A stretch of 64,000 nt of DNA from an uncultured Pseudomonadota bacterium (GCA_963847705.1 CAWKBC010000027.1:320001-384000); one strand, 5' to 3'. Positions 37,501-53,379 are shown, counted from the first letter of the stretch. The notes: generated by a model from the sequence alone, not told the origin. Numbers and translations are program-made.

Positions 37501-38599
37501 CCCGGGTGGCGTGCTCGAGCGAGCCCCGGTGCACGTCGGTCGCGAAGATCTTGATCGGGCGCTCACCCCGCGTGGCCATCAGATCCTCGCAGCAGGATGG
37601 CCAGCGAGTAGGCCTCTTCGCCCGTCGCGCAGCCGGCGACCCAGAGACGCAGCGGGGCCTCGCGCGGCTGGCGCGCCAGCAGGTCGGGGAGGACCTGGTT
37701 CTCGAGGACCTGCGAAGGCCTGCTCGTCGCGGAAGAAGCGCGTCACCTCGATGAGCAGATCGCGATAGAGAACGTCGAGCTCGCCGCGATCGGATTTCAA
37801 CCGCCGGATGTATTCGTCGATGTCCGCCGAACGGGCCAGGGCCAGCCGCCGCTCGATGCGCCGGGTGACGGTGCTCGGCTTGTAGTGCGTGAAGTCGATC
37901 CCGTACTCCTCCTGCAACATCCGATAGACCTCGACCACCGTGGCATTGCCGGCCGGGGCCTCGGTCACCGGCACCCGCTTCGAGGCCGCGGAGCGGCCCG
38001 CCGTGTGCTCCAACAGAACCCGGGGCATGTCGGAGGGGGAGAGGACCCAGTCGGCCAGGCCCGAGTCGGCCGCCGTCCGCGGCATCCCGTCGAACTGGGC
38101 GCTCTCGACGTCCTGGACGATCACCATCCCGCCGGCCTCGTGCACGTCGCGGATCCCGCGCGACCCGTCGCTGCCGCCGCCCGAGAGAACGACCGCCACC
38201 GCCCGCGCGCCACAGTCCTGGGCCAGCGAGCGAAAGAAGATGTCGATCGGCAGCGTCCGTTCCTGATGCCGCTCCTGCTCACTCAGCAGGAGGCGGCCGC
38301 CGGAGATGATCATCTCGTTCTTCGGGCGGGATCAGATAGACGTGCTCCGCCTCGACCGGCATCCCGTTCTCCACGAGGTGAATCGGCAACTCGGTATGAC
38401 GGGCCAGGAGCTCGTCCATCATGCTCCTGAAGTCGGGCGAGAGGTGCTGAACGATGACGAACGCCAGGCCCGTCTCCCGGGGCAGGTTGTCGAAGAAGCG
38501 TTCGATGGCTTCGAGCCCGCCGGCGGAGGCGCCGATCCCCACGACGTGGGAGGGGGAGCGGGACAATCCGAAGGCCACGTTTGTCCTCGGGCTATCCAT
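34525..38599 (-). CDS. CheB-CheR-coiled coil-PAS-PAS-histidine kinase-receiver fusion, broken by several frameshifts at ~36900-38330
   Basis: Che[45 protein letters not shown]. Che[34 protein letters not shown] repeats, SHELRNPL, HATPase, REC. Pieces lie in different frames. Confidence 0.85.
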
Positions 38600-39771: not shown

Positions 39772-40803
39772 ATGCCACGGAACGCGGGGCCAGCGAAGGG
39801 GAATCCTCTGTCAGCCCCTGCGCTGTTGCGGTCACTTCCACGGGCCTGGGACCAGCGGCCGATCTGGGCGCAGCTCAACATTACCTGGCGCTGCAACCTC
39901 GACTGCTCGTACTGCACCGAATACGACAACGACAAAGGGGACGTCCCGTACGAGGAGCTCATTCGCCGGATCGACAAGTGCCGGGAGCTCGGCGTTTTGC
40001 ACACCGATCTCATCGGCGGGGAGCCCCTCCTGCACCCCGATCTGGTTCGGCTCTTTCAGCAGATAAAAGCGCGCGGCATGACCAGCGGGATGACCACCAA
40101 CGGATTCCTGCTCACGGAGGACAAACTGGATCGGCTGTTGGAGGCCGGTCTCGGACGACTGCAGATCTCGGTCGACCGTCTCCGTCCGACCCGCGGGACA
40201 CCCAAATCGCTCAAGACCCTCAAGGGTAAGATCGACCTCTGCGCGGGCCGCCCGATCTGGTTTCGGGTGAACACCGTCCTTTGCGACGAGACCCTGGACG
40301 AGGTCGAGGAGGTGGCCGGCTTCTGTTTCGAGCGCGGCGTCGGCGTCAACTTCTCGGTCGTCCACGAGCGCGGCCGGCTGCGGCGGCGGCTCAACAACGG
40401 TCGATATCTGGAGAAGATTCGTTGGCTGCGCGCCGAGAAGCAGGCCGGGCGCCCGGTGGCGACCCCGTTCTTCCTGCTCGATTACTACGAACAGACGCTC
40501 TCCGGTGCCCCGCCAGACTGGACCTGCATGGCAGGGCAGAAGTGCTTCTACGTCGCGCCGGACGGCGGCTTCCACTACTGCGCGCACGTGCCGCCGGCGG
40601 GCGACTTTGCCACCGTCACCGCTGCCGACCTGGTGCTCGGGGGAGCAATGAAGGGGTGCGAGGCCAACTGTGGCGTCGACTGCGTGGTGCACACGTCGCT
40701 CCCCTACTCGAGCCTGGGCGCCGTGCTCACCTCGGAGATCGGCGCCCGCGTCGGCGCCGTCGTCGGTTCCGTCAAGGACGACCTGCTTCGGCGGCTCCCC
40801 TGA
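39772..40803 (+). CDS. Radical SAM protein with C-terminal SPASM/twitch-like Cys motifs
   Basis: CNLDCSYC, GGEPLLHPD, TTNG, C-terminal CMAG..HYC..CEANCGVDC. Confidence 0.85.
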   Translation: MPRNAGPAKGNPLSAPALLRSLPRAWDQRPIWAQLNITWRCNLDCSYCTEYDNDKGDVPYEELIRRIDKCRELGVLHTDLIGGEPLLHPDLVRLFQQIKARGMTSGMTTNGFLLTEDKLDRLLEAGLGRLQISVDRLRPTRGTPKSLKTLKGKIDLCAGRPIWFRVNTVLCDETLDEVEEVAGFCFERGVGVNFSVVHERGRLRRRLNNGRYLEKIRWLRAEKQAGRPVATPFFLLDYYEQTLSGAPPDWTCMAGQKCFYVAPDGGFHYCAHVPPAGDFATVTAADLVLGGAMKGCEANCGVDCVVHTSLPYSSLGAVLTSEIGARVGAVVGSVKDDLLRRLP

Positions 40804-41200
40804 AGACGAACCAACGATTGAGGGGATAGTTCCAGCCCAGATAAACTGCCGTCGCGATCACCAGCTTCGAGGCCGGGTAGGGCAGTCTTCCGAATCGGGT
40901 CAAGAGCCAGACCCCCAGCGTGTGTAAGGCCGAGGCCCCGGCCTGGACCACCACGAAACGTCCGAACGCGGGAATGGCCGGTGAGCCGCGCGCGCCGAAC
41001 GCCCATTGCTTGTTGATCGCGAAGTTGCTCAGCGAGCCGACGACAGTCCCGATCCAGGTCGACAGGACGTAACCGAGGCCGGCGAGCTCGGTCAGGCCGA
41101 TCAGCGTCCCGAAGTCGAGGGCGGTCGTCAGCAGTGACGTGAGGACGCTGCGCCCAAAGATGGCTCTCCCGTTGCCTCCGCGCGCGGGGTCGAGGTGCAC
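40772..41200 (-). CDS. GtrA-family membrane protein
   Basis: TTALDFG, SNFAINKQWAF, SKL..WNYPLNRWFVF, four TM segments. Confidence 0.85.
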   Translation of the reverse strand: MHLDPARGGNGRAIFGRSVLTSLLTTALDFGTLIGLTELAGLGYVLSTWIGTVVGSLSNFAINKQWAFGARGSPAIPAFGRFVVVQAGASALHTLGVWLLTRFGRLPYPASKLVIATAVYLGWNYPLNRWFVFRGAAEAGRP

Positions 41201-41356
41201 CTCTCCAGGGTAGCGTGGCGGAGCCGGTTGAACAGACCGCCGCCGCTGTTATTCCCGCCGACAGCTCTGGCCCTGGCCCACGCCGTGATCACGCAATGGC
41301 GAGCCGAGCGCGATTCGTGCGAGACTCAGCCACTTCCAAAGGAGAGCGACGCAAAA

Positions 41357-42064
41357 ATGCAGATCAAAGGTCCGGGGCTCGGGTGTGTGATGGCAATCGT
41401 GGCGCTGGTCGGCTGCGGCAGCAGCAGCGGGACTGGCGGCACGGGAGGGAGCACCGGCAGCGGTGGCGCCGGGAGCGGCAAAGGCGGCACCACGGGGGGA
41501 GGCGGCGCGTTCACCACCAGCGTTCCCGCCGGTACCAAGGTGACCGGCTTGACCACCGCGCAGGCCGCCCAGCTCTGCAACGACATCGAGAGCTACTTCG
41601 ACAACACCTTTCTGCCGTCCCTGTGCCAGGCCACGTCGTCGCTGCCTGGGCTGGAGGACGCCTATCTCGACCTGCTCCAGAATCCCACGGCGAGCAATGC
41701 CGAGTTGCAGACCGTCTGTGCCAGTGACGCGCAGGACGGCGGCTGTTCGGACTTCGTCGATGCCGGCACCGACAGCTGCGACATTTCGAGTGTGCCCTCG
41801 ACGTGCGAGGCGACCGTTGGTGACTACTCCAAGTGCATCAACGATATGACCACCACCGACGTGCAGTTTTACGCTTCGCTTCCGAGCTGCAGCACGCTGA
41901 CCGCTGCGAGCCTCCAGGCGTTTTTCGAGGCGGACGGCGGCTCCAGCTTCGACGCGCCGGAACCGGCGAGCTGCTCGAAGTTCGATTCGACCTGCGACGT
42001 CGACGGTGGCTCCGGGGCCATCTCGAACATGAGCCGTAGGATGATGCCCAAGCGAAGAAGGTAA
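41357..42064 (+). CDS. Cys-rich lipoprotein of unknown function
   Basis: Lipobox LVGC, Gly linker, [21 protein letters not shown] motif. Confidence 0.7.
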
Positions 42065-42179
42065 ACCCCGCCAGATCGCCCCTGGCGAGAGGGCACGAAG
42101 ATTCCAATCCGCCGATGGTCTCGGCGGGGCGGAAGGGAAGATCGCGCGGCGGGCGGCGACAAATGGTATTAGGAATTCC

Positions 42180-43277
42180 ATGTCCCCCACCGTCCGTCGC
42201 CCCGCTGGGTCAGGTCTCCTGGCGCTCTCGTCGCTGCTCCTCGCGGCCTGCTCCAGCAACAGCCACCCGGGCGGCGTCTCGACCGGCAGCGGCGGCTCCG
42301 GGAGCGGCGGCGTGACCGGCACCGGCGGCGTGGGCGATGCGGAAACGACCTGTGCCTTGCCGACGACCTTCCACTGGACCTCGGGCGACCCGCTGGCGAC
42401 GCCGAAGGCGCCCGCAGGCAAGACCTGGGTCGCGTTGAAGGACTTCTCCGACGTCGTCTACAACGGCATGCACATCGTCTACATGTCGACCCACGACACG
42501 GCGACGAGCTATGGCTCGGCCATGTTCATGTTCAGCGACTGGCCCGGCGCGAGCTCGGCCACGCAGTTCGTCACGCCCCACGGCGTCGCGCCGACGCTCT
42601 TTTACTTCACGCCGAAGAACACCTGGGTGCTCGCCTACCAATGGGGCTCGACCGCCTTCAGCTACGTGACCTCCTCGGACCCCGCGAACCCCACCTCGTG
42701 GTCCTCCGAGAAATCGCTCTTCGCCGGAACGCTCTCCTCCGACGCCTCCAGCACCGGCCCCATCGATCAGACGGTGATCTGCAGCAGCACGACCTGCTAT
42801 CTGTTTTTCGCCGGGGACAACGGGAGCATCTACCGGTCGTCGATGCCGATCGGCAGCTTCCCCGGCACCTTCGGCGCGCAGACCACGGTCATGTCCGACA
42901 CCACCGCCAACCTGTTCGAGGCGGTGGAGGTCTACGCGATCAAGGGCGCCGGCCAGTACCTGATGATCGTCGAGGCGCAGGGCGCCAACGGGCGATACTT
43001 CCGCTCGTTCACCGCCACCGATCTGGAGGGGGACTGGGCTCCGCTGGCCGCCACCGAGAGCAACCCCTTCGCGGGCAAGGCCAACGTGACCTTCAGCGGC
43101 ACCGCCTGGACCAACGACATCAGCCACGGCGACATGGTCCGCAACAACCCCGACGAGACCATGACCATCGACCCCTGCAACCTGCAGTTCCTCTTCCAGG
43201 GGCGCAGCCCCAGCTCCGACGGAACGACTTACGATCTGCTCCCCTACCAGCCGGGCCTGCTCACGCTCACCCCATAG
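42180..43277 (+). CDS. GH62 alpha-L-arabinofuranosidase lipoprotein
   Basis: Lipobox [87 protein letters not shown]. Confidence 0.93.
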
Positions 43278-43298: not shown

Positions 43299-43556
43299 CT
43301 ACCCGGCGTTGTAGACGAGCACCTCGACGGGGCCCATCTCGGCGGCGATCGAGGAGAAGGTCCGCTCGACCGCCGCTCCGTCCGTGACGTCACGAGGGTA
43401 CGCCTTCGCGCTGCCGAGCTCGCTCGCCAGGCCGGCAATCAGATCGGCCGAGCGCGCCAGCAAAGCGACCGAGTGCCCCTCGGCGTGGAACCTTCGGGCC
43501 AGCGCCGCGCCGTTCCCCGGGCCCACGCCGACGACCACACAGACGGGCTTGCTCAT
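43299..43556 (-). pseudogene. Truncated SDR oxidoreductase (N-terminal Rossmann half only)
   Basis: VVGVGPGNGAALARRF..DVTD..LVYNAG then stop. No YxxxK half before the convergent GH62. Confidence 0.75.
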
Positions 43557-43577: not shown

Positions 43578-44894
43578 TCAGGAGCCGAGCGCCAGCTCGT
43601 TGAGCACCGGGAGCGGTGGCAGCAGCGCGCTGCCGAGGCGTCGTTCGATGCGCTCGACCAGGTAGGTCGCGTCCGCGGCGACCCCGGAGAAGCGACCGGA
43701 GCCCCAGGTGTGCAGCCAGGGGAGGCCGATGAAATACAGGCCGTCGACCGGCGTGACGCCGCGCCGGTGGGTCGGATAGCCGCGCCCGTCGAAGATCGGC
43801 AGCGAGATCCAGCTGTAGTCGGTGCGGTATCCGGTCGACCAGACCACCGCCGCCAGCGGGGTCTGCGCCAGGTCGAGGCTGGACGTGATCCCTTCTGGTT
43901 CCCACACCGGCCGGTAACGGGCCTCCGTCGGTGCTTCGATTCCCCGGTCGGTGATGAACTTGTCGATGCTGGTCTTGATGCTCTCGGCGACGGCGTCGGC
44001 CTGGTCGAGGTTGGCCTTGAGATCGCCGGCGAGCTCGAGGCGTCCATTGCGCACGGCCGTGAGACGTCCGTAGAGCCGCATCCCTTCCCGGGCCCGCTGG
44101 CGCAGATCGATGTCGCGGCCGCCGTCGCGGCCGGTCACGTAGTGGTTGGCCTTGGCGCGCACGCGATCGTGCAGGGGATGGTCCTCGACCGCCAGGCGGT
44201 AGTACCCCATGTCTTCCAGCCAGTCGACGACGTCGCGGCCTCGATAGCGCCGCGCGGTGCGGGGCGCGCTGCCGACGCAGAGGTGCACGCGCCGCCCGGC
44301 CAGGTGCAGGTCCTCCGCGATCTGACAGCCCGATTGGCCGGTCCCGACGACCAGCACCTCTCCCCCCGGCAACGCCGCGGAGTTGCGGTAGGCCGACGAG
44401 TGGAGCTGCACGATCGATTCGGGGAGCCGCTCGGAGAGGCGGGGGAACGAGGGGGTGTGATAGCCGCCGGTGGCGATCACCACCTCGTCGGCGTGGTATT
44501 CGCCGGCGGTGGTGCCGAGGTCGAAGCCGCCGCCCGCCGCGCGCCGCAAGGAGGTGACCGCCACCCCTTCGCGCAGCGGCGGATCGAACGAACGTGCGTA
44601 GGCCTCGAGGTAGCCGACGATCGCGTCCTTCAGCATGAACCCGTGCGGGTCGGGGCCGTCGTAGGGAAAGCCGGGCAGGCGGCATTGCCAGTTGGGCGTC
44701 ACCAGACAGAAGGAATCCCAGCGCCGTTCGCGCCACTCGTGGCCGATGCGGTGCTTCTCGAACACCAGGTGGTCGATGGCCCGCTGCTTGAGGCAGTAGC
44801 TGACGGCCAGTCCCGCCTGGCCGCCTCCGATCACGATCACGCTGTGATGACGCGCGGGCGCGCCTTTCTCCGGGGACGGTTCGCTGGAGGTCAA
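43578..44894 (-). CDS. nitH: MSMEG_0569-family flavin-dependent oxidoreductase
   Basis: GGGQAGL, RWDSFCLVTPNWQCRLPG, GTGQSGCQIAEDL, NHYVTGRDGGRDIDLR, TWGSGRFSGV. Confidence 0.9.
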   Translation of the reverse strand: MTSSEPSPEKGAPARHHSVIVIGGGQAGLAVSYCLKQRAIDHLVFEKHRIGHEWRERRWDSFCLVTPNWQCRLPGFPYDGPDPHGFMLKDAIVGYLEAYARSFDPPLREGVAVTSLRRAAGGGFDLGTTAGEYHADEVVIATGGYHTPSFPRLSERLPESIVQLHSSAYRNSAALPGGEVLVVGTGQSGCQIAEDLHLAGRRVHLCVGSAPRTARRYRGRDVVDWLEDMGYYRLAVEDHPLHDRVRAKANHYVTGRDGGRDIDLRQRAREGMRLYGRLTAVRNGRLELAGDLKANLDQADAVAESIKTSIDKFITDRGIEAPTEARYRPVWEPEGITSSLDLAQTPLAAVVWSTGYRTDYSWISLPIFDGRGYPTHRRGVTPVDGLYFIGLPWLHTWGSGRFSGVAADATYLVERIERRLGSALLPPLPVLNELALGS

Positions 44895-45187
44895 GGCGTG
44901 GCTCCCGGCGGATCGAAGGCGACGATCGTCACCCGAGAGGTCTCGTCGAAGGCGGCGGCGCGCTCCTCGATCCTGGCCAGCTGATCGAGCGCGCCGGTGC
45001 AGACGTAGCCGTACTTGGCCCGCACCCGCTCCGAGCCGATGTTCAACATCGTGCGGCTGCGCGCCACGAAGTCGGGCAGCGGGTAGTCCTGTCCGACCTC
45101 CAGGTGCTCGCGCACCACCAGCGAGGGCGAATAACAGCGGGACTCGACGCCGTCAGGCCAGCGAACGACGAAGTGCATTTCCGGCAT
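44891..45187 (-). CDS. nitG: MSMEG_0570-family protein
   Basis: MPEMHFVVRWPDG..CYSPSLVV..SERVRAKYGYVC. Confidence 0.9.
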   Translation of the reverse strand: MPEMHFVVRWPDGVESRCYSPSLVVREHLEVGQDYPLPDFVARSRTMLNIGSERVRAKYGYVCTGALDQLARIEERAAAFDETSRVTIVAFDPPGATP

Positions 45188-46349
45188 GGCTGAGGATCCT
45201 TTCGTAACCTGCGAGATGGAGCGCCGCGACCCGCGGCCAGGAGTGGAGCTCGGCGCGCCGCCGCCCGGCCTCGAGCCGGGAGGGGGGCGTCGCCAGCGCC
45301 TCGGCGAGCCCGAGCGCGATCGCCTCCTCCGAGGTGGGATCGACCAGGGTCGCGCAGGAGGCGTCGAGGAACTCGGTGAACGGGGGGCGAGCGGAGGCCA
45401 CCAGCGGAAGCCCGGCACCCAGCGCCTCCAGCGCGACCAGCCCGAACCCCTCTTGCAGCGACGGTGAGGCCACCACCTGGGCGACCTGATAGAGCGCGAC
45501 CAGGTCGGCGTCCGGGACGACGCCCAGCTGGACCACCGCGTCCTGTATTTCGGGAGCCAGCGCCGCCAGCGCCCGCTGGAACTCGGCGCGGTAGGCACCG
45601 TGGTCGAGCGCCGTGGCGCCTCCGACGATCCAGAGCTGGGCCCCGGGATGGCTGGCCCGCAGCCGTCTGAACGCGCCCAGGATGCGCCGGCTGTTCTTGC
45701 GCGGCTCGATCCCGCCCACCGCCAGCACCAGCGGGCCGCGGCCGCCCAGGCGGGCGCGCCACCTGGCCACCCGGGTCGGATCGGCGACGCGGAGGCGACC
45801 GAGGTCGACGCCGTTGCCGACCAGCTCGCATCGAATGCCCAGCGCCTCGACGACGTCTCGCTGCGCGGTCTGGCTCACCGCGAAACAGAAGTCGACCTCG
45901 CGAATCGAGCGCTCCTGGCAGCGGGCCAGCGCCGGATCGGCGAAGGCCTCCAGGTGATGGACGGTGCGCACGAGCGGCGCCGACAGCGGTACGCCCCGCG
46001 CGCCCGCGGTCAGAAGACCGTTCGCGGTCAGGCAGTCTTGCGCGTGATGGAGGTCGTGACGCAATTGAGCGCGCGCCAGGAAGTCGGCCAGCTCGTTGGC
46101 GCGCTGGCGGACCAGCGCCGCGGTGGTGACGGGGGCGGGCGCCGCCGGCACCAGGCGGAGCGCGGCCCGCAGCGGGCGAAAGAAGCCGCGTCCGTCCTTG
46201 TCGAGCGCGTACAGGGTGGCGTCGCATCCGGCGTCGTGCAGCGCGTCGGCCAGCGCGGCGGCGTGAACGACGCTGCCGCGAGGGGCCGTCGAGTAGGTGA
46301 AGATCCCCACCGAGAGGCGCGGGCGCGACGAAACCGGCCCAGCGTTCAT
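45153..46349 (-). CDS. MSMEG_0565-family GT4 glycosyltransferase
   Basis: TYSTAPRGSVVH, HAQDCLTAN, RTVHH, VGGIEPRKN, GGATALDH, EGFGLVALEA. Confidence 0.88.
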   Translation of the reverse strand: MNAGPVSSRPRLSVGIFTYSTAPRGSVVHAAALADALHDAGCDATLYALDKDGRGFFRPLRAALRLVPAAPAPVTTAALVRQRANELADFLARAQLRHDLHHAQDCLTANGLLTAGARGVPLSAPLVRTVHHLEAFADPALARCQERSIREVDFCFAVSQTAQRDVVEALGIRCELVGNGVDLGRLRVADPTRVARWRARLGGRGPLVLAVGGIEPRKNSRRILGAFRRLRASHPGAQLWIVGGATALDHGAYRAEFQRALAALAPEIQDAVVQLGVVPDADLVALYQVAQVVASPSLQEGFGLVALEALGAGLPLVASARPPFTEFLDASCATLVDPTSEEAIALGLAEALATPPSRLEAGRRRAELHSWPRVAALHLAGYERILSHAGNALRRSLA

Positions 46350-47290
46350 CGCCGCTCCCGCACGAACCGGCGCTCGGTGATCAGATCGGCCATGGTCCGA
46401 CCGTCGCTGGGGCGCAGGAGGCGCAGGTGCGTCTTCACCCCGCGCGCCCCGAGGAGCTCGAAGCCGAGGAGGTCGACCACCAGCGGCTCGCCGAGCGGCA
46501 GGTTGGCGTAGAAGAAGACCGCGCGCCGCACGGTGGAGGTGCAGAGGGCCCAGTCGGTGCGCGGCCGCGGCGAGAGACCGAGCCGCTGCACGAGCCCGCG
46601 CTCCGCCGTGTCGGCGATCGTGACGTAAGAGGCGAAGTAGAGCAGTCCGGCGCCGTTGTAATCGCCGTAGGGCGAGGGCTGGTAATCGAACCGTCCCAGC
46701 GCCGGTCCGGTCGTCCGCAGCGACGGTCCGCAGAAATCATCGTCGAGCCTCTGCCCCGCGCGGGCCGCCCTGGCGAGCCGCACCAGCTCGGGCGGGGTGT
46801 CGCCAGCCTCCACCAGCCAGCGCGCCGCCAGCTCGGGCGCGGGGACGGCCATGCGCAAGCCGCCGTCCGGCGCGTGAACGGCGAAGGTGGTGAGCAGCTC
46901 GACCGACGAGCGACGGCCGGCGATGGTCAGATCGATCCGCCCGTCGGCGCAGGCGCGCCCGCAGGGTCTGACGGAGACCTTGATCGCCAGCAGATCGTTC
47001 TCGTTCACCGCGGCGAGCGGCGCCCCGTACCGCGCGCGCAACGCCACCACCGTCGGGTAGAGACGCTGACCCGCCTCGGCGCGAAATCCGTCCGAGGAGA
47101 CCCCCAGCTCGCGCCCGATCTCCTCCCAGTGAAGGTCGCCGCAGGTCCGGTAGAGCCACCCTTCCGATAGCCCGCCGGCGTCCAGCTGAGGCATGCCGAT
47201 CCGGATCCGGCGCGGCGCCGCGGGCAACCCGTCGGCCGGCGCGAGATCGGTCAGCCACGGTCCGGAGGCGCAAAGCGCGGGCGCGCTCAT
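46346..47290 (-). CDS. Pnap_2097/LnmK-like double hot-dog biosynthetic protein
   Basis: RIGMPQL..GGLSEGWL..CGDLHW and PSPYGDYNGAGLLYFASY..AD.AE..FFYANL motifs. Confidence 0.75.
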   Translation of the reverse strand: MSAPALCASGPWLTDLAPADGLPAAPRRIRIGMPQLDAGGLSEGWLYRTCGDLHWEEIGRELGVSSDGFRAEAGQRLYPTVVALRARYGAPLAAVNENDLLAIKVSVRPCGRACADGRIDLTIAGRRSSVELLTTFAVHAPDGGLRMAVPAPELAARWLVEAGDTPPELVRLARAARAGQRLDDDFCGPSLRTTGPALGRFDYQPSPYGDYNGAGLLYFASYVTIADTAERGLVQRLGLSPRPRTDWALCTSTVRRAVFFYANLPLGEPLVVDLLGFELLGARGVKTHLRLLRPSDGRTMADLITERRFVRERR

Positions 47291-48267
47291 GGCGACTGGC
47301 TCCCCGGGCCGAAGCCAGTGAGCGGGGTCCGGGAGAGATCCCAGACCGTGGCCCGCTCGGCGCCGGCGACCAGGGTCAGCGTGTGGCTTTCGTCCACGCG
47401 CCCGACGATCGCCGCGTCGATCCCGCGCGCTGCGAACGCGGCCAGCGCGGCGGCGCTGCGAGAAGGGGCGACCGAGAGCAGGAAACCGTAGCTGGGGAAC
47501 GCCAGCAGCCAGCTCTCCCAGGGGATCCCCGGCGGACGCGGCATCGCCTCGAGCGACAGCGTCGCGCCGACCCCCGAGGCCTCCAGCAACATGACCGCGG
47601 TCCCGACAACGCCGCCCATGCTGATGTCCTTGCCGGCTTCCGCCACGCCGTCCTCGGCCAGCTGCGGCAGGATCTGATAGTCGGCTTGCAGCCGCTCCGG
47701 TGGCGCCTCGGTGCTGGCGTTCCAGAACGGGTAGCGCCCGTGCATCTGGCCGCGCAGATCGACCGCGGCGACGAGGTCGTCGCCGGGGCGCGCGTCGAAG
47801 CTGGTGAGGAGGCGCCGCGCGCGCCCGAGGATCGCCACCGAGAGCGCGGGATAGGGGCTGTGCAGGTTGGTGTGTCCCCCGACCACCGGGACGCCGAAGC
47901 GGGCGGCGGCGTCGGCCATCCCGGCCCAGAGCGGTTCGGCGGTCGGCGCGTCGGTGGCGAAGAGCGTGTCGACGACCGCCAGTGGGCGTCCGCCCATGGC
48001 GTAGATGTCGCTGATGTTGACCATCACCGCGCAGTAGCCGGCGAAGCGCGGCTCACGCGCCACCAGCTCGGGCCACATCCCCTCGGCCGCCAGCAGGAGG
48101 TAGCCCTCTCCGTCGGGGATGGCCGCCGCGTCGTCGCCGAGGCGCACCTCGGCGCTCCCCCAGGGTCCGCCGGGCGCCCGGGGCAGACGGCTCGCCGCCG
48201 CCTGGATCTCGCGCTTTTGCTGGACCCCCAGCGCCTGTCGCAGATGGGTCGCCAGGTCAGGCAGCAT
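47287..48267 (-). CDS. nitF: sll0787-family AIR synthase-like (PurM/SelD fold) protein
   Basis: LGDDAAAIPDGEGYLLLAAEG, MVNISDIYAMGGRPLAVVD, VGGHTN, GKDISMGG, FPSYGFLL. Confidence 0.9.
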   Translation of the reverse strand: MLPDLATHLRQALGVQQKREIQAAASRLPRAPGGPWGSAEVRLGDDAAAIPDGEGYLLLAAEGMWPELVAREPRFAGYCAVMVNISDIYAMGGRPLAVVDTLFATDAPTAEPLWAGMADAAARFGVPVVGGHTNLHSPYPALSVAILGRARRLLTSFDARPGDDLVAAVDLRGQMHGRYPFWNASTEAPPERLQADYQILPQLAEDGVAEAGKDISMGGVVGTAVMLLEASGVGATLSLEAMPRPPGIPWESWLLAFPSYGFLLSVAPSRSAAALAAFAARGIDAAIVGRVDESHTLTLVAGAERATVWDLSRTPLTGFGPGSQSP

Positions 48268-48814
48268 GGTCCTCGGCGAATCGACGGAGAGTTCTGTCGG
48301 CCGGTGATGTCTCCGCGACCGGCGGATAGGCCGCCAGATCGGCCTCCATCAAATGGTGCGGCTGCTCGAACAGCGTCAGCTCCTCCAGCGAGCGCCAGCG
48401 CAGCCGCCGGAAGAACGGGACGTTGGCCTGCTGGACGGTGGCCCGAAACCGCCAGGCGCCCCAGGCGCGCGCGGTGCCGACCGCCGTTCGAATCAACCGG
48501 CGGCCGATGGCGCCCACGGTGCGGTGGGAGAGGTCGACGCCCAACCGACCCCCCCACCAATCGCCAGGGGCCTCCTCCCAGATGCGCACCACCCCGACGA
48601 CGCGGGGCGCCTCGTCGCCGAGCAGGCAGACGATTGGAAAGGCCTCCGCGTCGAGGGGATCGCGATCGTCTCCCCGGAACAGCCGCTGCTCGTCGCAGAA
48701 GATCGATCGCCGCAGGGCGAAGTAGCCTTCGCGTTCGCGGTCCCCACGCGCCAGCCGACAGGTCAGCGTCAGCTCCGATTCGCGCGTTCCGTCCGGAGCG
48801 CCGGCCTCGCTCAT
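48257..48814 (-). CDS. nitE: MSMEG_0567/sll0786-family GNAT N-acetyltransferase
   Basis: [65 protein letters not shown]. Confidence 0.88.
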
Positions 48815-49968
48815 GACGACGCCTCGTAGGACGAGAGAGCGGAGCAAGCGCCGCACTTGGCGCACCCCGCCTTCCCTTCGCTCGACGACAGGCCCGCTCC
48901 CCTGAGCAACGCTGCGACCTGCCGGTAGAGATCGTCCATCATCGCGGCGGGAGGCGGGGCCGTGTCGGCCATCGGCGTGCCGGCGATCGGCACGAACGGG
49001 ACCAGGAACGGGTAGACGCCCATCGCCACCAGCCGGGCCGCGGCGGCGACCAGGCTGTCCGGGCGGTCGCCGAGCCCGGCGATGAGGTAGGTGCTGACCT
49101 GGCCGCGCCCGAACAGACCGACGGCGGCCGCGAACGCCTCGTCATAACGCTCGAGCGACAGCTCGGCCTTGCCGGGCATGACCGCGGCGCGCACGGCCGG
49201 CTCGACCGCCTCGAGGTGCATCGCGAGGGTGTCCGCGCCTGCCTCCTTCAAGCGGGCGAGCCAGCTCAGATCGTCGGGCGGCTCGCACTGGACCTGAACG
49301 GGGAGCGACGGGACGGCCTGCTTGATGGCCGCCACGCAGGCTGCCAGATGCGCGGCGCCGCGATCGGGTGTGGCCGGGGTCCCCGTGGTGAGCACCATCT
49401 GCTCGATCCCGTCGAGGCGCACGGCGGCCTCGGCCACCTCGGCCAGCTGGGCCGGTGTCTTGCGCGCCAGCGTACGCCCTTCTTTGAGCGATGTTCCAAT
49501 GGCGCAGAAGCGGCACGCCTGCGCGCTGTCGTTGTAGCGGACGCAGGACTGCATCACGGTCGAGGCCAGCACGCGCCGCGCGTGGAGCAGGGCGATCTTC
49601 CAGTACGGCACGCCGTCGGCGGTCGCGAGTCGGTAGAAGCTCGGCGCCGCCGGCAGCTCCACCTCCGCCACCGGAGCGCTCTCGCGCAGGAGCAGCGCCC
49701 GCGGTTGCCGCTCCCCGCCATCGCTCGGAAGCACACGGAGGCGGAAAGGCGAGCGCCCCGGCGCGCGCATCGGAACCATCACCGTGTCCGCCCCGAATGA
49801 GAGCGCGCGGTGGTCGGAGGGCCCGGCGCCGCCCCGACGACCGGGGGCCCCGGCGGGGACGTCTGCCTCGCTCACCCCCATCGCCTGCAGGTCGGCGTAG
49901 AGCCCGATCGTCGGCTGCGTCGTCGTCCCGAGCGCCGCCGCCTCGATGCTGCCGCTGTCTATCGCCAT
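48811..49968 (-). CDS. nitD: MSMEG_0568-family radical SAM protein
   Basis: [24 protein letters not shown], non-canonical [22 protein letters not shown]-terminal [11 protein letters not shown]. Confidence 0.92.
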
Positions 49969-49981
49969 CTCCCTGGTCCTT

Positions 49982-50959
49982 TCATCTGACGTTGTCGGTG
50001 GTGAGGGTCTCGCTCCGCCTGGTGGTGGCCCGGTCGGTGAGCGGTGAGGTCGCCGTCCGATCGATGAGCAGGCTCAAGAGCTCGGGCCGGCTGTAGTGAC
50101 CGACGCTGTCCATCATCCGTTTGCGCTTGGTGATGAGCGACAGGTCGAGATCGGCGTAGAGGATCCCTTCCCCCTCGGTGAGCGGCTTGCCGAGCAGCGT
50201 CCCCTCGGGCGACACGATGGCGGTGAAGCAACCGCCGCTCACGGCCCGCTCGAGGCCGGTCGTGCCCGCCACCTCCACCCGCTGCTCCGGCGTCAGCCAC
50301 CCGGTGGCGTTGACCACGAAGCAGCCTGATTCGAGCGCGTGGTGGCGGATGGTCACCTCGATCTGCTCGGCGAAGATCGGCCCCACCAGCGAGCCCGGGA
50401 ACATCGCCACGTGGATCTCCTCGTGGTCGGCCATGAGCGCGTAGCGGGCCAGCGGGTTGTAGTGCTCCCAGCAGGCCAGCGCGCCGATCCGGCCGACGCG
50501 GGTGTCGACCGCCCGCAGGCCGGCCCCGTCCCCTTGCCCCCAGACCATCCGCTCGTGGTAGGTCGGGGTGATCTTCCGCCGGTGGAGGACCAGCTGGCCG
50601 TCGGCGTCGAAGATCAGCTGGGCGTTGTAGAGCGTGCCGTGCGCGCGCTCGTTCACCCCCAGCACCACCACCGTCCCGGTGGTGCGCGCCGCCTCCGCCA
50701 CCGCCTCGGTCGTCGGTCCCGGCACGACGACCGACTCTTCGTAGAGGCGCAGGTGCTCCTTGCCCATCACCGCGGCCGGCTGGATGAACGAAAAGTACGG
50801 GTAGTACGGGACCACCGTCTCCGGGAACACCACCAGCGCCGCCCCCTCGGCGGCGGCGGCGCGGATGGCGGCGCAGACCTTCTCGGTGGTGCCGGCCCGG
50901 CTCCCGAGGACGGGCGCCAACTGCACGGCGGCCGCCCGGACCTTTCGATTCTCCGACAC
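49982..50959 (-). CDS. nitC: Nit6803-family nitrilase
   Basis: Catalytic triad [33 protein letters not shown], plus [20 protein letters not shown] start at 50959. Confidence 0.93.
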
Positions 50960-50967
50960 GCCGCCGC

Positions 50968-51450
50968 CTACAGCGTCCAGGTGTTCAAGATGAAGGCGCC
51001 GGCCTTGCGGTGGAGCAGCACGATGTCGAGCACGTCGAGCGGGCTGATGGGACGGATCCCGGGGATGAGCGCCGCCTCCGTCTGGCCGTAGAGCGCCGAG
51101 AGCGCGAACCGGCAGGCGTAGACCTTCCCGCCCTCGGCCATGAAGCCGCCGATCTTCTGGTTGACCACCAGATGTCCGGGAAACGCTTCGCTCCCCAGCT
51201 TGGGGAACCCGCGCTGCACGCCCAGCATGACGCCGGGGCCGTACAGAAGGACACTGGTCTCGAACCCCTTTCGCATCAGGCGCGTCGCCTGCAGCATGTT
51301 GACGAGGCCGATCGAGCCCTCGAACGGAACGGTGTGGAAGGTGACCAGGGCCTTTTCCCCGGGAGAGGCCTTCACGTCCTCGAAGACTTTCTCTTCGGGA
51401 TCGACCAGGAACTCTCCCTCCTTGTGCGGTGCGTGCGTCACGGCTGCCAT
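50968..51450 (-). CDS. nitB: MSMEG_0572/sll0783-family DsrE-like protein
   Basis: [68 protein letters not shown] upstream. Confidence 0.92.
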
Positions 51451-51499
51451 CTGAACCTCCTCGGCGCGTTGGTTGCGGTCGGTGTCGATCCCTACAATC

Positions 51500-51516
51500 A
51501 GCAAGGGCAGGGCCAA
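51500..51516 (-). promoter_or_regulatory. Sigma-54 (-24/-12) promoter of the nit operon
   Basis: Minus strand TTGGCCCTGCCCTTGCT = GG-N10-GC with TTGC, ~50 bp upstream of nitB and facing away from a divergent sigma-54 activator. Confidence 0.8.
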
Positions 51517-51610
51517 TCACCGGGACACGGCAGGGTCTTCGATGAAACCGGGGTCGTGGAGCGCTGAACGACGCGCGCGGTGTCAGCTCAATCGATGCAC
51601 CGTTTCCGGC

Positions 51611-51657
51611 TGATTTCGTGACGGCGAAGATCACGGCAGACGCCACGGGATCTCGTG
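51611..51657. promoter_or_regulatory. Candidate upstream activator sites
   Basis: Near-palindrome CACGGGATCTCGTG (51644-51657) and a related half-site GATTTCGTG (51612-51620), ~100-140 bp from the -24 element. Confidence 0.4.
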
Positions 51658-51710
51658 TTTTCCACCGCGAATTTGCGTTTTCGAAACGAACGTTCGCGTA
51701 GGCTGGTCGC

Positions 51711-53379
51711 GTGTTGTGGTCGCAGATCAGCGCGCCCGCCCCGGACGCCTTCAAAGAGCTGCTGCTGGAGCTCGCCCACGAGCGCTCGCTCGAACAGCTC
51801 TTGCCGCTGGTCACTCAGCGCCTGGCCGAGCACGAGGACGTCGCGCTGGCGCGCCTGTGGCTGATCGATCCGGGCGATCAATGTGGTGATGGCTGTCCCA
51901 ACGCCGCCACCTGCGGCGATCGCTCGCGCTGTCTGCACCTGGTGGCCAGCACCTCGCGCTCGCTCGACGGCGCGACCGTCGCGGCCAATCGATTGAACGG
52001 CGACTTTCGCCGCATCCCGATCGGGGCGTTCAAGGTGGGCGCGGTGGCGGCCGCCGGAGCCCCGGTCGTGGTGACCGATCCGGCGCACGATCCCAAGATC
52101 CGGCGGCCGGAGTGGGTGCGCGCCGAGCAGATCGCCGGCTTCGCTGGGTTGCCGCTCGACTGTCGGGGCGAACGCCTCGGCGTGCTGGGGGTGTTCGTGC
52201 GCGCGCCCATCACCGATGCGGCAGTGGACGTGCTGCGCATCGTGGCCAATCACACCGCCGCCGCCATCGCCACGGCGCGCGCCGTCGCCCAGGTCACCGA
52301 GATGCGCCAGCAGATCCTGCTCGAGGGCGGTCGACTGCTCCGTCAGGTCAACCAGAACGTGGGCGTCGAAGAGTTGATCGGCCAGAGCGCCCAGATGCGC
52401 GAGGTGCGGCGCCAGATCGCCGCCGTGGCCGCCACCGACGCCGGTGTCCTGATCCTGGGCGAGTCGGGCACCGGGAAGGAGCTGGCGGCGCGCGCCATCC
52501 ATCGTCTGAGCCCGCGCGCCGGAGGGCCCTTCGTCGAGCTCAACTGCGCGGCGATCCCGCGCGAGCTGGCAGAGACGGAGCTCTTCGGCCACGTGCGCGG
52601 CGCGTTCTCCGGCGCGACGCGCGATCGCATCGGTCGTTTCGAGGCGGCCGAGGGCGGCACGCTGTTTCTCGATGAGGTGGGCGAGCTGCCGCCGGAGCTG
52701 CAGGCCAAGCTGCTGCGGGTCTTGCAGGAGGGGACCTACGAGCGGGTGGGGGACGTGCGGACCCGCCGCACCGACGTCCGCATCGTCGCCGCCACCAACC
52801 GCAACTTGCTGGTCGAGGTCGACGCCGGGCGATTCCGACAAGATCTCTACTATCGGCTGGCGATCTTCCCCGTCTCGCTGCCGCCGCTGCGCGAGCGAAC
52901 GGAGGATCTGCCAGCGCTGGTCGAGCACCTGCTGTCGCGGATCTGCCGACGGCTCAATCGGCCGCCGCTCTCCCTGACGGGTGAGCAGCTGCGGGAGCTG
53001 GCGCGTCGCCGCTGGCCGGGCAACGTCCGCGAGCTGGTCAACCTGCTGGAGCGGGCGATCATCTCGGCGAGCTCCGACGAAGAGCTGAGCTTCGCACCCG
53101 TCCAGGAGCTGTGGGCGGCGCGCCCCTCGGCGCAGCCGGCGGGATCCTCGGTGGCCGTCCCGGCGCTCGAGGGTCCGCTCTATCCGGCGCGCTCACCGGA
53201 CGCCGCGGACGTCGTTCCCGATCTCGAGATGCGGCGGCTCGAGCGCGACAACTTGAGACGGGCGCTGGCCCGGACCGGCGGGAAGATTCTACGGCCCTGA
53301 CGGCGCCGCGGCGCTTCTGGGAGTCAAGCCGACCACGCTCGCTTCGCGCCTCAAGCGGCTGCACATCGAGACCCCGTAA
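51711..53379 (+). CDS. nitA: Sigma-54-dependent activator (GAF-AAA+-HTH), frameshift at ~53287
   Basis: [37 protein letters not shown]. Deleting one T at GATTC (53285-53289) restores the [30 protein letters not shown], stop 53379. Confidence 0.88.

What the first reader, a model, noticed from the sequence alone, without database searches (positions are those of the whole stretch)
43578..53379. Nit1C (MSMEG_0565-0572-type) cluster with glycosyltransferase and Pnap_2097/LnmK-like gene: orphan biosynthetic pathway in a myxobacterium
Seen: nine tightly coupled genes, nitB-nitC-nitD-nitE-nitF-(hot-dog)-(GT4)-nitG-nitH, plus a divergent activator; no separate MSMEG_0566-like amidase. Established: Nit1C clusters are induced by nitrogen starvation or cyanide and support cyanide/nitrile assimilation, but to my knowledge the product of the radical SAM, PurM-like, GNAT, GT and flavoenzyme set is unknown. 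LnmK is an acyltransferase/decarboxylase acting on ACP/CoA substrates, yet no ACP or PKS is present here. Inference: the operon builds an unknown acylated, glycosylated small molecule or cofactor, with the Cys-bearing small proteins NitB/NitG as possible carriers.
Basis: partly seen in the sequence, partly recalled or inferred. Interest (0 to 1): 0.7.

Follow-up and report, generated by a model that had tools for sequence, protein, structure and literature searches.

The report
Known Nit1C nitrilase operon, myxobacterial copy
This is an intact nine-gene copy of the already catalogued Nit1C operon, which other bacteria use to grow on cyanide or under nitrogen starvation and whose product is still unknown; comparison with relatives suggests it likely centres on a three-enzyme unit predicted to insert sulfur into a small acylated molecule, with the hot-dog enzyme likely supplying propionyl-CoA and the sugar transferase an optional extra.

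Summary
Observation confirmed. All nine genes pass their NCBIfam cut-offs, are translationally coupled and follow a conserved sigma-54 promoter. The same order holds in 14 Myxococcota loci, and the same gene set occurs in Rhizobiaceae and Burkholderiaceae. It is a new member of the known Nit1C cluster; the scan noted one in another myxobacterium (e1-2787440). I found no published product.

The comparison splits it into modules. (1) NitD-E-F: NitD folds most like lipoyl synthase and has a conserved C-terminal GCxxCxxC. D-E fusions exist, and the triad recurs without nitB/C/G/H in distant loci beside SsuA-type importers and Hdr-like proteins. (2) NitG-NitH: fused in 8 of 120 homologs, so NitG is more likely the flavoenzyme's dithiol partner than an acyl carrier. 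(3) The hot-dog keeps LnmK's active-site residues and overlaps methylmalonyl-CoA mutase in 5 of 5 Burkholderiaceae loci, so it likely makes propionyl-CoA without an ACP. (4) GT4 and hot-dog are independently optional, so 'acylated, glycosylated' cannot describe the core product. The activator's HTH is cut by a one-base frameshift, probably an assembly error. All chemistry is inferred.

The parts
51711..53379 (+). nitA, GAF + sigma-54 AAA+ enhancer-binding activator. As assembled the ORF ends at 53300; a one-base frameshift at about 53287 separates the C-terminal HTH (next frame to 53379)
   Evidence: Pfam GAF and Sigma54_activat; frames and intact HTH in 11 of 11 relatives translated; related strains in 2 of 4 runs lack base 53287
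51668..51690 (-). Conserved intergenic element, candidate activator-binding site or nitA promoter element (untested)
   Evidence: Conserved block in the alignment of the window with 13 relatives; coordinates
51500..51515 (-). sigma-54 -24/-12 promoter (TGGC-N7-TTGCT) in front of nitB
   Evidence: TGG and TTGCT columns invariant in 14 of 14 aligned intergenic regions; coordinates
50968..51450 (-). nitB, 160 aa, MSMEG_0572/Sll0783 family, DsrE-like, single Cys113
   Evidence: TIGR04044; no Pfam hit; Atlas neighbours with DsrE at 0.93 (15% of members) and 0.85 (91%); Cys113 in 26 of 26
49982..50959 (-). nitC, Nit6803-family nitrilase, 325 aa, triad Glu47-Lys129-Cys163
   Evidence: TIGR04048; triad motifs
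48811..49968 (-). nitD, radical SAM enzyme, 385 aa, variant CX9CX2C (142/152/155) plus C-terminal GCxxCxxC (369/372/375)
   Evidence: TIGR04043; cysteine conservation; model pLDDT 92, top folds lipoyl synthases
48257..48814 (-). nitE, GNAT acyltransferase, 185 aa
   Evidence: TIGR04045; fused to NitD in distant homologs
47287..48267 (-). nitF, PurM/SelD/ThiL-superfamily ATP-dependent enzyme, 326 aa; next-closest family is methanogenesis marker 2
   Evidence: TIGR04049 447 bits, TIGR03267 261 bits; PDB hits PurL, ThiL, SelD
46346..47290 (-). Pnap_2097/LnmK-like double hot-dog protein, 314 aa; Tyr78, Asn212, Tyr218, Asn263 align with LnmK Tyr62, Asn216, Tyr222, Asn263
   Evidence: TIGR04098 and TIGR04099; invariant in 16 of 16; alignment to LnmK
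45153..46349 (-). MSMEG_0565-family GT4 glycosyltransferase, 398 aa (optional in the cluster)
   Evidence: TIGR04047; absent from several hot-dog-bearing clusters
44891..45187 (-). nitG, 98 aa, two conserved cysteines (18, 63); partner or N-terminal domain of NitH
   Evidence: TIGR04042; both Cys in 121 of 121 close homologs, fusions with NitH in 8 of 120; model pLDDT 90.6
43578..44894 (-). nitH, FAD/NAD(P)H flavoprotein, 438 aa, invariant Cys63-X7-Cys71
   Evidence: TIGR04046; Cys63 and Cys71 in 121 of 121 close homologs

Best explanation
This is a nine-gene Nit1C operon behind a sigma-54 promoter, likely switched on by its neighbouring activator when nitrogen is short, whose core radical-SAM, acyltransferase and ATP-dependent enzymes are predicted to build a small sulfur-containing, acylated molecule or protein-bound cofactor. 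Shown: gene set, order, coupling, promoter motif, conserved residues, fusions and co-occurrence. Inferred steps: (1) NitD abstracts a hydrogen with its SAM cluster and inserts sulfur from a second Fe-S cluster held by the C-terminal GCxxCxxC, as lipoyl and type II biotin synthases do. (2) NitB (DsrE-like, Cys113) resupplies that sulfur as a persulfide. (3) NitE acylates and NitF ATP-activates the same intermediate. (4) NitH passes NAD(P)H electrons through its Cys63/Cys71 pair to the NitG dithiol, serving the core. (5) The hot-dog decarboxylates (2R)-methylmalonyl-CoA (or malonyl-CoA) to propionyl-CoA (acetyl-CoA), the donor for NitE, with no ACP needed. (6) GT4 optionally glycosylates the product. 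(7) NitC frees ammonia from a nitrile or cyanohydrin; this is the part linked to growth on cyanide in Pseudomonas. Membership in Nit1C is near certain (about 0.97); the confidence below is for the mechanism.
For: Families and coupling. The NitD model's best matches are lipoyl synthases, Z 20.0 (rmsd 3.5, 247 aligned) and 19.6, then a type II biotin synthase, Z 17.7; Foldseek ranks 1-7 are LipA, as are the PDB sequence hits. The C-terminal Cys triad is at least 90% conserved over 54 sequences of 28-53% identity. LipS2 uses a C-terminal CxxC for its auxiliary cluster (PMC9585515 passages). NitD-NitE fusions: 9 of 40 length-selected homologs pass both HMM cut-offs. NCBIfam names imply an NitE-NitF fusion in MSMEG_0567. 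In 80 distant NitD loci (38-47% identity, 49 clusters at 90%) NitE-like occurs in 59, NitF-like in 47, and nitB/nitG/nitH in 0 by tblastn; among the 19 with at least 3 kb on both sides: 17, 16 and 0. Their neighbours are an SsuA/NMT1-family importer (16 of 19), an Hdr-like CCG protein (9 of 19), homocysteine sulfur-incorporation enzymes (4 Pfam-verified loci) and a DsrE protein (3 loci of one lineage). Hot-dog residues; LnmK mechanism (review passage); scpA follows the hot-dog in 5 of 5 Burkholderiaceae loci, overlapping it in the 3 annotated ones; other clusters carry an acyl-CoA dehydrogenase or AMP-binding ligase after nitH. NitG-NitH fusions. Lower NADPH/NADP in the sll0783 mutant and higher on gpr expression.
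Against: No biochemical data exist for NitD, E, F, G, H or the hot-dog in my searches. The fold margin is small: non-sulfur-inserting MqnE (Z 17.6) and HydE, HydG and PylB (16-17) follow closely, and a shared fold shows no function. The LipS2 HMM hit on NitD (E 4e-11) is no better than ordinary radical SAM hits in 129 of 151 genomes and misses the C-terminal motif. NitF lacks an N-terminal Cys like SelD's (motif recalled). The 80 distant loci are the best 80 of 506 from one pattern, so a biased subfamily with short contigs, and the HcyBio-linked ones show no NitE or NitF nearby. scpA is absent from 7 of 7 alphaproteobacterial Nit1C loci and 14 of 14 Myxococcota loci, and the five Burkholderiaceae are kin. 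The Myxococcota hot-dogs lack the GxN loop seen in LnmK and most proteobacterial members. The direction of acyl-CoA flux (supply or disposal) is not resolved.
Confidence: 0.38

Rival explanations
1. Catabolic chain. The operon exists to take nitrogen from cyanide or nitriles: NitC (with the core enzymes) yields ammonia plus a malonate-type acid, and the accessory acyl-CoA enzymes (hot-dog decarboxylase, mutase, ligase, dehydrogenase) dispose of the carbon. No stable biosynthetic product accumulates.
For: [quoted passage not shown] Hauf et al. propose degradation of unusual nitriles. The accessory slot holds typical acyl-CoA catabolic genes. Mutase plus decarboxylase can run as disposal.
Against: Cyanide is a poor NitC substrate and the authors doubt nitrogen provision is its main role. 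The D-E-F triad persists without any Nit6803-level nitrilase in the 80 distant loci (2 weak hits, 26-33% identity). Radical SAM, GNAT and ATP-dependent steps cost energy, which is odd for plain hydrolysis.
Confidence: 0.3
2. One reading: all nine genes make one acylated, glycosylated small molecule, with NitB and NitG as covalent carriers replacing an ACP.
For: Tight coupling and fixed order in 14 Myxococcota loci. The hot-dog keeps the Tyr that carries the acyl group in LnmK. Both small proteins have invariant cysteines.
Against: GT4 and hot-dog are independently dispensable. NitG is fused to NitH in 8 of 120 homologs. Neither small protein was found near the distant D-E-F loci by tblastn (0 of 80), apart from a remote DsrE in 3.
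Confidence: 0.14
3. Scavenging module. NitD-E-F breaks down or remodels an imported organosulfur or organonitrogen compound by radical C-S, C-N or C-C cleavage (HydG/ThiH-like), using its extra cluster for electron transfer or product binding rather than sulfur donation.
For: An SsuA/TauA/NMT1-family importer lies beside the triad in 16 of 19 wide distant loci. HydE, HydG, ThiH and NosL are close structural neighbours.
Against: No importer lies in the window's operon or was annotated inside the Nit1C operons I read. The best structural matches are sulfur-inserting enzymes.
Confidence: 0.15

Closest known systems
Pseudomonas nit1C cluster (nitA + nitBCDEFGH; P. oleovorans CECT 5344, P. fluorescens NCIMB 11764)
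   Same: Seven core genes in the same order with a divergent sigma-54 activator (PMC11049912 passages; PMC7815647).
   Different: The window adds a Pnap_2097 hot-dog and a GT4 between nitF and nitG.
Rhizobiaceae and Burkholderiaceae nine-gene Nit1C (e.g. Rhizobium daejeonense, Paraburkholderia sp. FT54, Burkholderia anthina plasmids)
   Same: Identical nine-gene content including GT4 and Pnap_2097.
   Different: There the hot-dog follows nitH, the upstream gene is a divergent gene annotated PLP-dependent aminotransferase family (probably a MocR-type regulator; recalled), and in Burkholderiaceae scpA follows. Myxococcota hot-dogs form their own clade (100/100).
Mycobacterium smegmatis gpr operon MSMEG_0565-0572
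   Same: Same families including the GT; induced by nitrogen starvation, raises NADPH/NADP (PMC6039565).
   Different: GlnR-controlled, has the MSMEG_0566 amidase; GNAT and PurM-like parts share one locus tag; no hot-dog mentioned in the passages read.
LnmK (leinamycin acyltransferase/decarboxylase, PDB 4HZO/6X7L)
   Same: Profile match E 1e-19 over LnmK residues 32-302; Tyr62, Asn216, Tyr222, Asn263 conserved.
   Different: No ACP, HMG-CoA synthase or PKS nearby; Phe65 position is Val and the GSN loop is missing in the window's protein.
Lipoyl synthase LipA and LipS1/LipS2
   Same: Best structural neighbours of the NitD model; extra cysteines suited to an auxiliary cluster.
   Different: NitD has CX9CX2C rather than CX3CX2C, no N-terminal CX4CX5C or RSSY motif, scores 44 bits against the LipS2 cut-off of 270, and has no lipoyl-carrier or ligase gene beside it.

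Membership tests
Nit1C / MSMEG_0565-0572 cluster | Seven core genes nitB-nitH, each in its own family | tested here: met
   All seven above curated cut-offs
Nit1C / MSMEG_0565-0572 cluster | Conserved order B-C-D-E-F-(GT)-G-H in one operon | tested here: met
   Order and junction gaps; order as in PMC1199592
Nit1C / MSMEG_0565-0572 cluster | Nit6803-type nitrilase with Glu-Lys-Cys triad | tested here: met
   TIGR04048 560/503 bits; Glu47, Lys129, Cys163
Nit1C / MSMEG_0565-0572 cluster | Divergent sigma-54 activator and promoter (Pseudomonas type) | tested here: met
   GAF-AAA+ gene and -24/-12 site present; HTH frameshifted in this assembly, intact in 11 of 11 relatives
Nit1C / MSMEG_0565-0572 cluster | Induced by nitrogen limitation or cyanide; supports cyanide assimilation | not testable with these tools
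   Needs expression and growth data for this organism
Pnap_2097 / LnmK double hot-dog family | HMM above cut-off and LnmK active-site Tyr and Asn residues | tested here: met
   TIGR04098 164.5/100, TIGR04099 150/125; Tyr78, Asn212, Tyr218, Asn263 invariant in 16 of 16. Tyr62's role is; the specific Asn numbers' roles are recalled
LnmK-type beta-branching cassette | Cognate ACP and PKS genes in the cluster | tested here: not met
   No ACP hit in the window or in 14 related loci; genome's two PP-binding matches on other contigs
LnmK-type beta-branching cassette | Decarboxylation of (2R)-methylmalonyl-CoA | not testable with these tools
   Only gene-context support: scpA in 5 of 5 Burkholderiaceae loci
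Lipoyl synthase (LipA or LipS1/S2) | CX3CX2C plus the family's auxiliary-cluster motifs; HMM cut-off | tested here: not met
   CX9CX2C; lipA 31/310 and LipS2 44/270 bits. NitD may work like one without being a member
Sulfur-inserting radical SAM enzymes (functional class) | Second Fe-S cluster that donates sulfur | tested here: inconclusive
   Conserved C-terminal Cys triad and LipA-like fold; cluster binding and sulfur donation untested
Acyl carrier protein (for NitG) | Helical bundle with phosphopantetheine-Ser; PF00550 match | tested here: not met
   No Pfam hit; not among genome PF00550 matches; model has four strands and three helices
DsrE sulfurtransferase family (for NitB) | DsrE fold with conserved Cys | tested here: inconclusive
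   No Pfam hit; Atlas links to DsrE clusters; a NitB profile finds a Pfam-verified DsrE protein at E about 1e-4; Cys113 invariant; not folded

The most novel reading that the evidence does not exclude
Nit1C is one host of a portable, undescribed sulfur-installing machine, NitD-NitE-NitF (LipA-like radical SAM with a C-terminal auxiliary cluster, GNAT, methanogenesis-marker-2-like ATP enzyme). It makes an unknown thio-acyl cofactor or redox metabolite in aerobes, anaerobic bacteria and perhaps archaea. Aerobes plug in NitB as sulfur donor and the NitG-NitH flavin-dithiol pair; anaerobes plug in an SsuA-type importer and an Hdr-like complex; the hot-dog with methylmalonyl-CoA mutase switches the acyl group from acetyl to propionyl.
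Probability: 0.22. Interest if true: 0.8.

Novelty: new member of a known kind. Interest (0 to 1): 0.4.

Why it matters
The locus itself is ordinary: a catalogued cluster with catalogued accessory genes. Its chemistry, though, has been open since 2005, although the cluster is linked to cyanide assimilation, NADPH balance and peroxide resistance and lies on at least 515 plasmid records. The modular reading reduces nine unknowns to three cheap assays: sulfur insertion by NitD with NitE and NitF, a NitH-NitG thiol relay, and methylmalonyl-CoA decarboxylation by the hot-dog. If the triad is right, it would also give a lead on methanogenesis marker 2, NitF's next-closest family.

Tried and rejected
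1. Complex prediction NitH + FAD + NitG: no answer, score 0.00 against a mark of 0.32, controls not run; not used as evidence either way.
2. Fold searches of the NitG model: no Foldseek match at E up to 0.001, best VIA Z 5.2, which is uninformative.
3. NitD as a LipS2 relative by sequence: rejected, the hit is at background level.
4. Independent recruitment of the hot-dog from a PKS in Myxococcota: not supported. The 14 Myxococcota Nit1C hot-dogs fall on the same side of a 95/94 branch as the proteobacterial Nit1C ones, away from the two PKS-linked rows; several rows are long, the tree is midpoint-rooted, no AU test was run, and L009 was left out as frameshifted.
5. Expression: no RNA holder listed.
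6. Whether the nitA frameshift is real: the laid contigs spanning the site came from related strains, not this one, so undecided.
7. aa:carrier-protein ligase or ACP genes beside the hot-dog (recalled lead): not seen in the 13 Nit1C-linked plasmid loci read; ACPs are annotated only in two non-Nit1C loci.
8. Phylum sample: 4 of 301 genomes over the TIGR04098 cut-off including this one; none of the 10 other loci fetched had a Nit1C context.
9. Literature: no paper naming the product or the hot-dog/scpA link in searches. The library lacks most subscription papers; the two primary LnmK papers were not held, and Estepa 2012 and Jones 2018 were seen only as citations. No supplements were read; they could hold single-gene mutant data.

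Full report
Observation. Nine minus-strand genes run from 51450 to 43578 in the order stated, and each passes its curated NCBIfam cut-off. Junction gaps are 8, 13, -4, -11, -4, -4, -35 and -4 nt, with GC3 0.83-0.95. A sigma-54 site TGGC-N7-TTGCT lies at 51515-51500; its TGG and TTGCT columns are invariant in the window plus 13 relatives. The divergent gene at 51711 is a GAF + sigma-54 activator. One extra base at about 53287 cuts off its HTH, which is intact in 11 of 11 relatives translated (L004 and L009 were left out as frameshifted elsewhere, L005 lacks the gene). Related strains in 2 of 4 runs lack that base, and a CheB-CheR gene in the window has several frameshifts. An assembly error is likely but not shown. 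No second carbon-nitrogen hydrolase was found in the genome, and its two ACP-type matches lie on other contigs (84.7% complete).

Distribution. Eight of 61 related genomes, this one included, carry NitD above cut-off, and all seven others also carry the hot-dog. Across 14 distinct Myxococcota loci (15 examined; L003 and L033 are one contig) 12 have hits to all ten genes in this order, and two are cut by contig ends but keep the order. The hot-dog matched 35 plasmid records. Of the 17 I fetched, 13 are in Nit1C and 4 are in PKS, fatty-acyl or polysaccharide loci. NitD matched 515 plasmid records. Of four more loci chosen by NitD, two have the hot-dog, one an acyl-CoA dehydrogenase and one an AMP-binding ligase after nitH. 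The hot-dog occurs without GT4 in six loci and GT4 without the hot-dog in two.

Known background. [quoted passage not shown] The M. smegmatis operon raises NADPH/NADP and gives peroxide resistance (PMC6039565, passages and Discussion). The Synechocystis nitB mutant fails to raise NADPH, and those authors already note DsrE homology (PMC3901256, passages). Nine searches found no product; the library lacks most subscription papers. An earlier scan note on another myxobacterial copy reached the same 'catalogued cluster' verdict.

Module 1, hot-dog. A 16-sequence profile matches LnmK at E 1e-19. Tyr78, Asn212, Tyr218 and Asn263 are invariant and align with LnmK Tyr62, Asn216, Tyr222 and Asn263. LnmK first decarboxylates (2R)-methylmalonyl-CoA to propionyl-CoA and then transfers the acyl group via Tyr62 to an ACP (review PMC11350588, passages); a loop asparagine is used for decarboxylation (PMC8666670, passages and section 7). 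In 5 of 5 Burkholderiaceae loci methylmalonyl-CoA mutase follows the hot-dog, overlapping it in the three annotated ones; the mutase makes the (R) isomer (established knowledge). It is absent from 7 of 7 alphaproteobacterial and 14 of 14 Myxococcota Nit1C loci, though this genome has mutase genes elsewhere and a near-cut-off epimerase. I infer a CoA-level decarboxylase, which removes the 'no ACP' puzzle. Whether it feeds the GNAT or disposes of a nitrilase product is open. The Myxococcota proteins form one clade (100/100) grouped with the proteobacterial Nit1C hot-dogs (95/94) and lack the GxN loop.

Module 2, NitG-NitH. Eight of 120 close NitH homologs carry a complete NitG domain at the N-terminus. 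NitG Cys18 and Cys63 and NitH Cys63 and Cys71 are present in 121 of 121 close sequences (all at least 64% identical, so a narrow sample), and NitG Cys18 and Cys63 also hold in 25 of 26 sequences that include proteobacteria. The two genes move together in Verrucomicrobium. The NitG model (pLDDT 90.6, single sequence) is alpha/beta. I read NitG as the flavoenzyme's thiol partner, not an acyl carrier.

Module 3, NitD-E-F. NitD has CX9CX2C and a C-terminal GCxxCxxC, at least 90% conserved over 54 sequences. Its model (pLDDT 92) matches lipoyl synthases best (Z 20.0 and 19.6), then a type II biotin synthase (17.7), with MqnE, NifB and HydE within 3.1 Z units of the top (Foldseek agrees). LipS2 ligates its auxiliary cluster with a C-terminal CxxC (PMC9585515, passages), but the LipS2 HMM hit on NitD is at background level (PMC10332631 passages read for context). 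Nine of 40 length-selected homologs are NitD-NitE fusions above both cut-offs. In 80 distant metagenome loci (best 80 of 506, one pattern; 38-47% identity; 49 clusters at 90%) NitE-like genes occur in 59, NitF-like in 47, nitB/G/H in none by tblastn, and a nitrilase-like gene in 2 at 26-33%. Among the 19 loci with at least 3 kb on both sides, 17 have NitE, 16 NitF, 16 an SsuA/NMT1 binding protein and 9 an Hdr-like CCG protein. Four loci have a Pfam-verified homocysteine sulfur-incorporation gene just upstream, without NitE or NitF in view; three more match only its C-terminal end. Three loci of one lineage have a DsrE gene upstream. NitF's next family is methanogenesis marker 2, for which the passages read give no function (PMC12978539). 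So the triad appears to be a unit independent of the nitrilase, and it keeps sulfur-related company.

Mechanism and verdict. My preferred reading (0.38) is sulfur insertion by NitD with NitB as donor, acylation by NitE, ATP activation by NitF, electrons from NitH-NitG, propionyl-CoA from the hot-dog, optional glycosylation, and ammonia release by NitC. Every chemical step is inferred. The locus is a new member of a known kind. Interest is 0.4: unsurprising as a locus, but the modular evidence makes a 20-year-old open question more directly testable.

Noticed in passing
L099-L178 (e.g. L104, L139, L150, L168): A conserved operon in apparently anaerobic bacteria: SsuA/NMT1 ABC importer, FMN reductase or Hdr-like CCG protein with a NarI-like subunit, NitD-NitE (often fused) and a NitF/marker-2-like gene, without nitB/C/G/H. 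I found no description of it; it deserves its own study.
   Followed up: partly
L138, L140, L166, L171: NitD-like radical SAM gene directly downstream of, often overlapping, a homocysteine sulfur-incorporation enzyme (PF01837) in archaeal-looking contigs. NitD-like proteins are also named from Bathyarchaeota and Lokiarchaeia (below the TIGR04043 cut-off), although Nit1C genes were reported absent from archaea.
   Followed up: partly
L053, L057-L060: Pnap_2097 hot-dog followed by methylmalonyl-CoA mutase scpA at the end of Nit1C in five Burkholderiaceae.
   Followed up: yes
P0494, P0496, P0502, P0506, P0508, P0516, P0521, P0523: Natural NitG-NitH fusion proteins of 516-520 aa.
   Followed up: yes
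window 43299-43556 (-): An 85-aa short-chain dehydrogenase stub 21 nt after nitH, ending against the convergent GH62 gene; no hit in 14 related Myxococcota loci, so likely a pseudogene fragment.
   Followed up: partly
window about 36000-38599 (-): CheB-CheR fusion gene broken by several frameshifts, suggesting indel errors in this assembly.
   Followed up: partly
window 39772-43277 (+): A standalone radical SAM gene (39772-40803), a convergent GtrA-family gene, an unannotated Gly/Thr-rich secreted-looking protein (41195-42064) and a GH62 arabinofuranosidase (42180-43277).
   Followed up: no
L087-L092: A divergent clade of TIGR04098-like hot-dogs (below cut-off) in other Myxococcota families, not linked to Nit1C; context not annotated.
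   Followed up: no
L054 (Roseobacter plasmid) and L056 (Thalassospira plasmid): Pnap_2097-family genes in a polysaccharide locus (486-aa gene) and in a fatty acyl-AMP ligase/ACP/desaturase cluster.
   Followed up: no
L063, L064, L065, L052, L098: A DUF983 gene recurs next to alphaproteobacterial Nit1C clusters.
   Followed up: no
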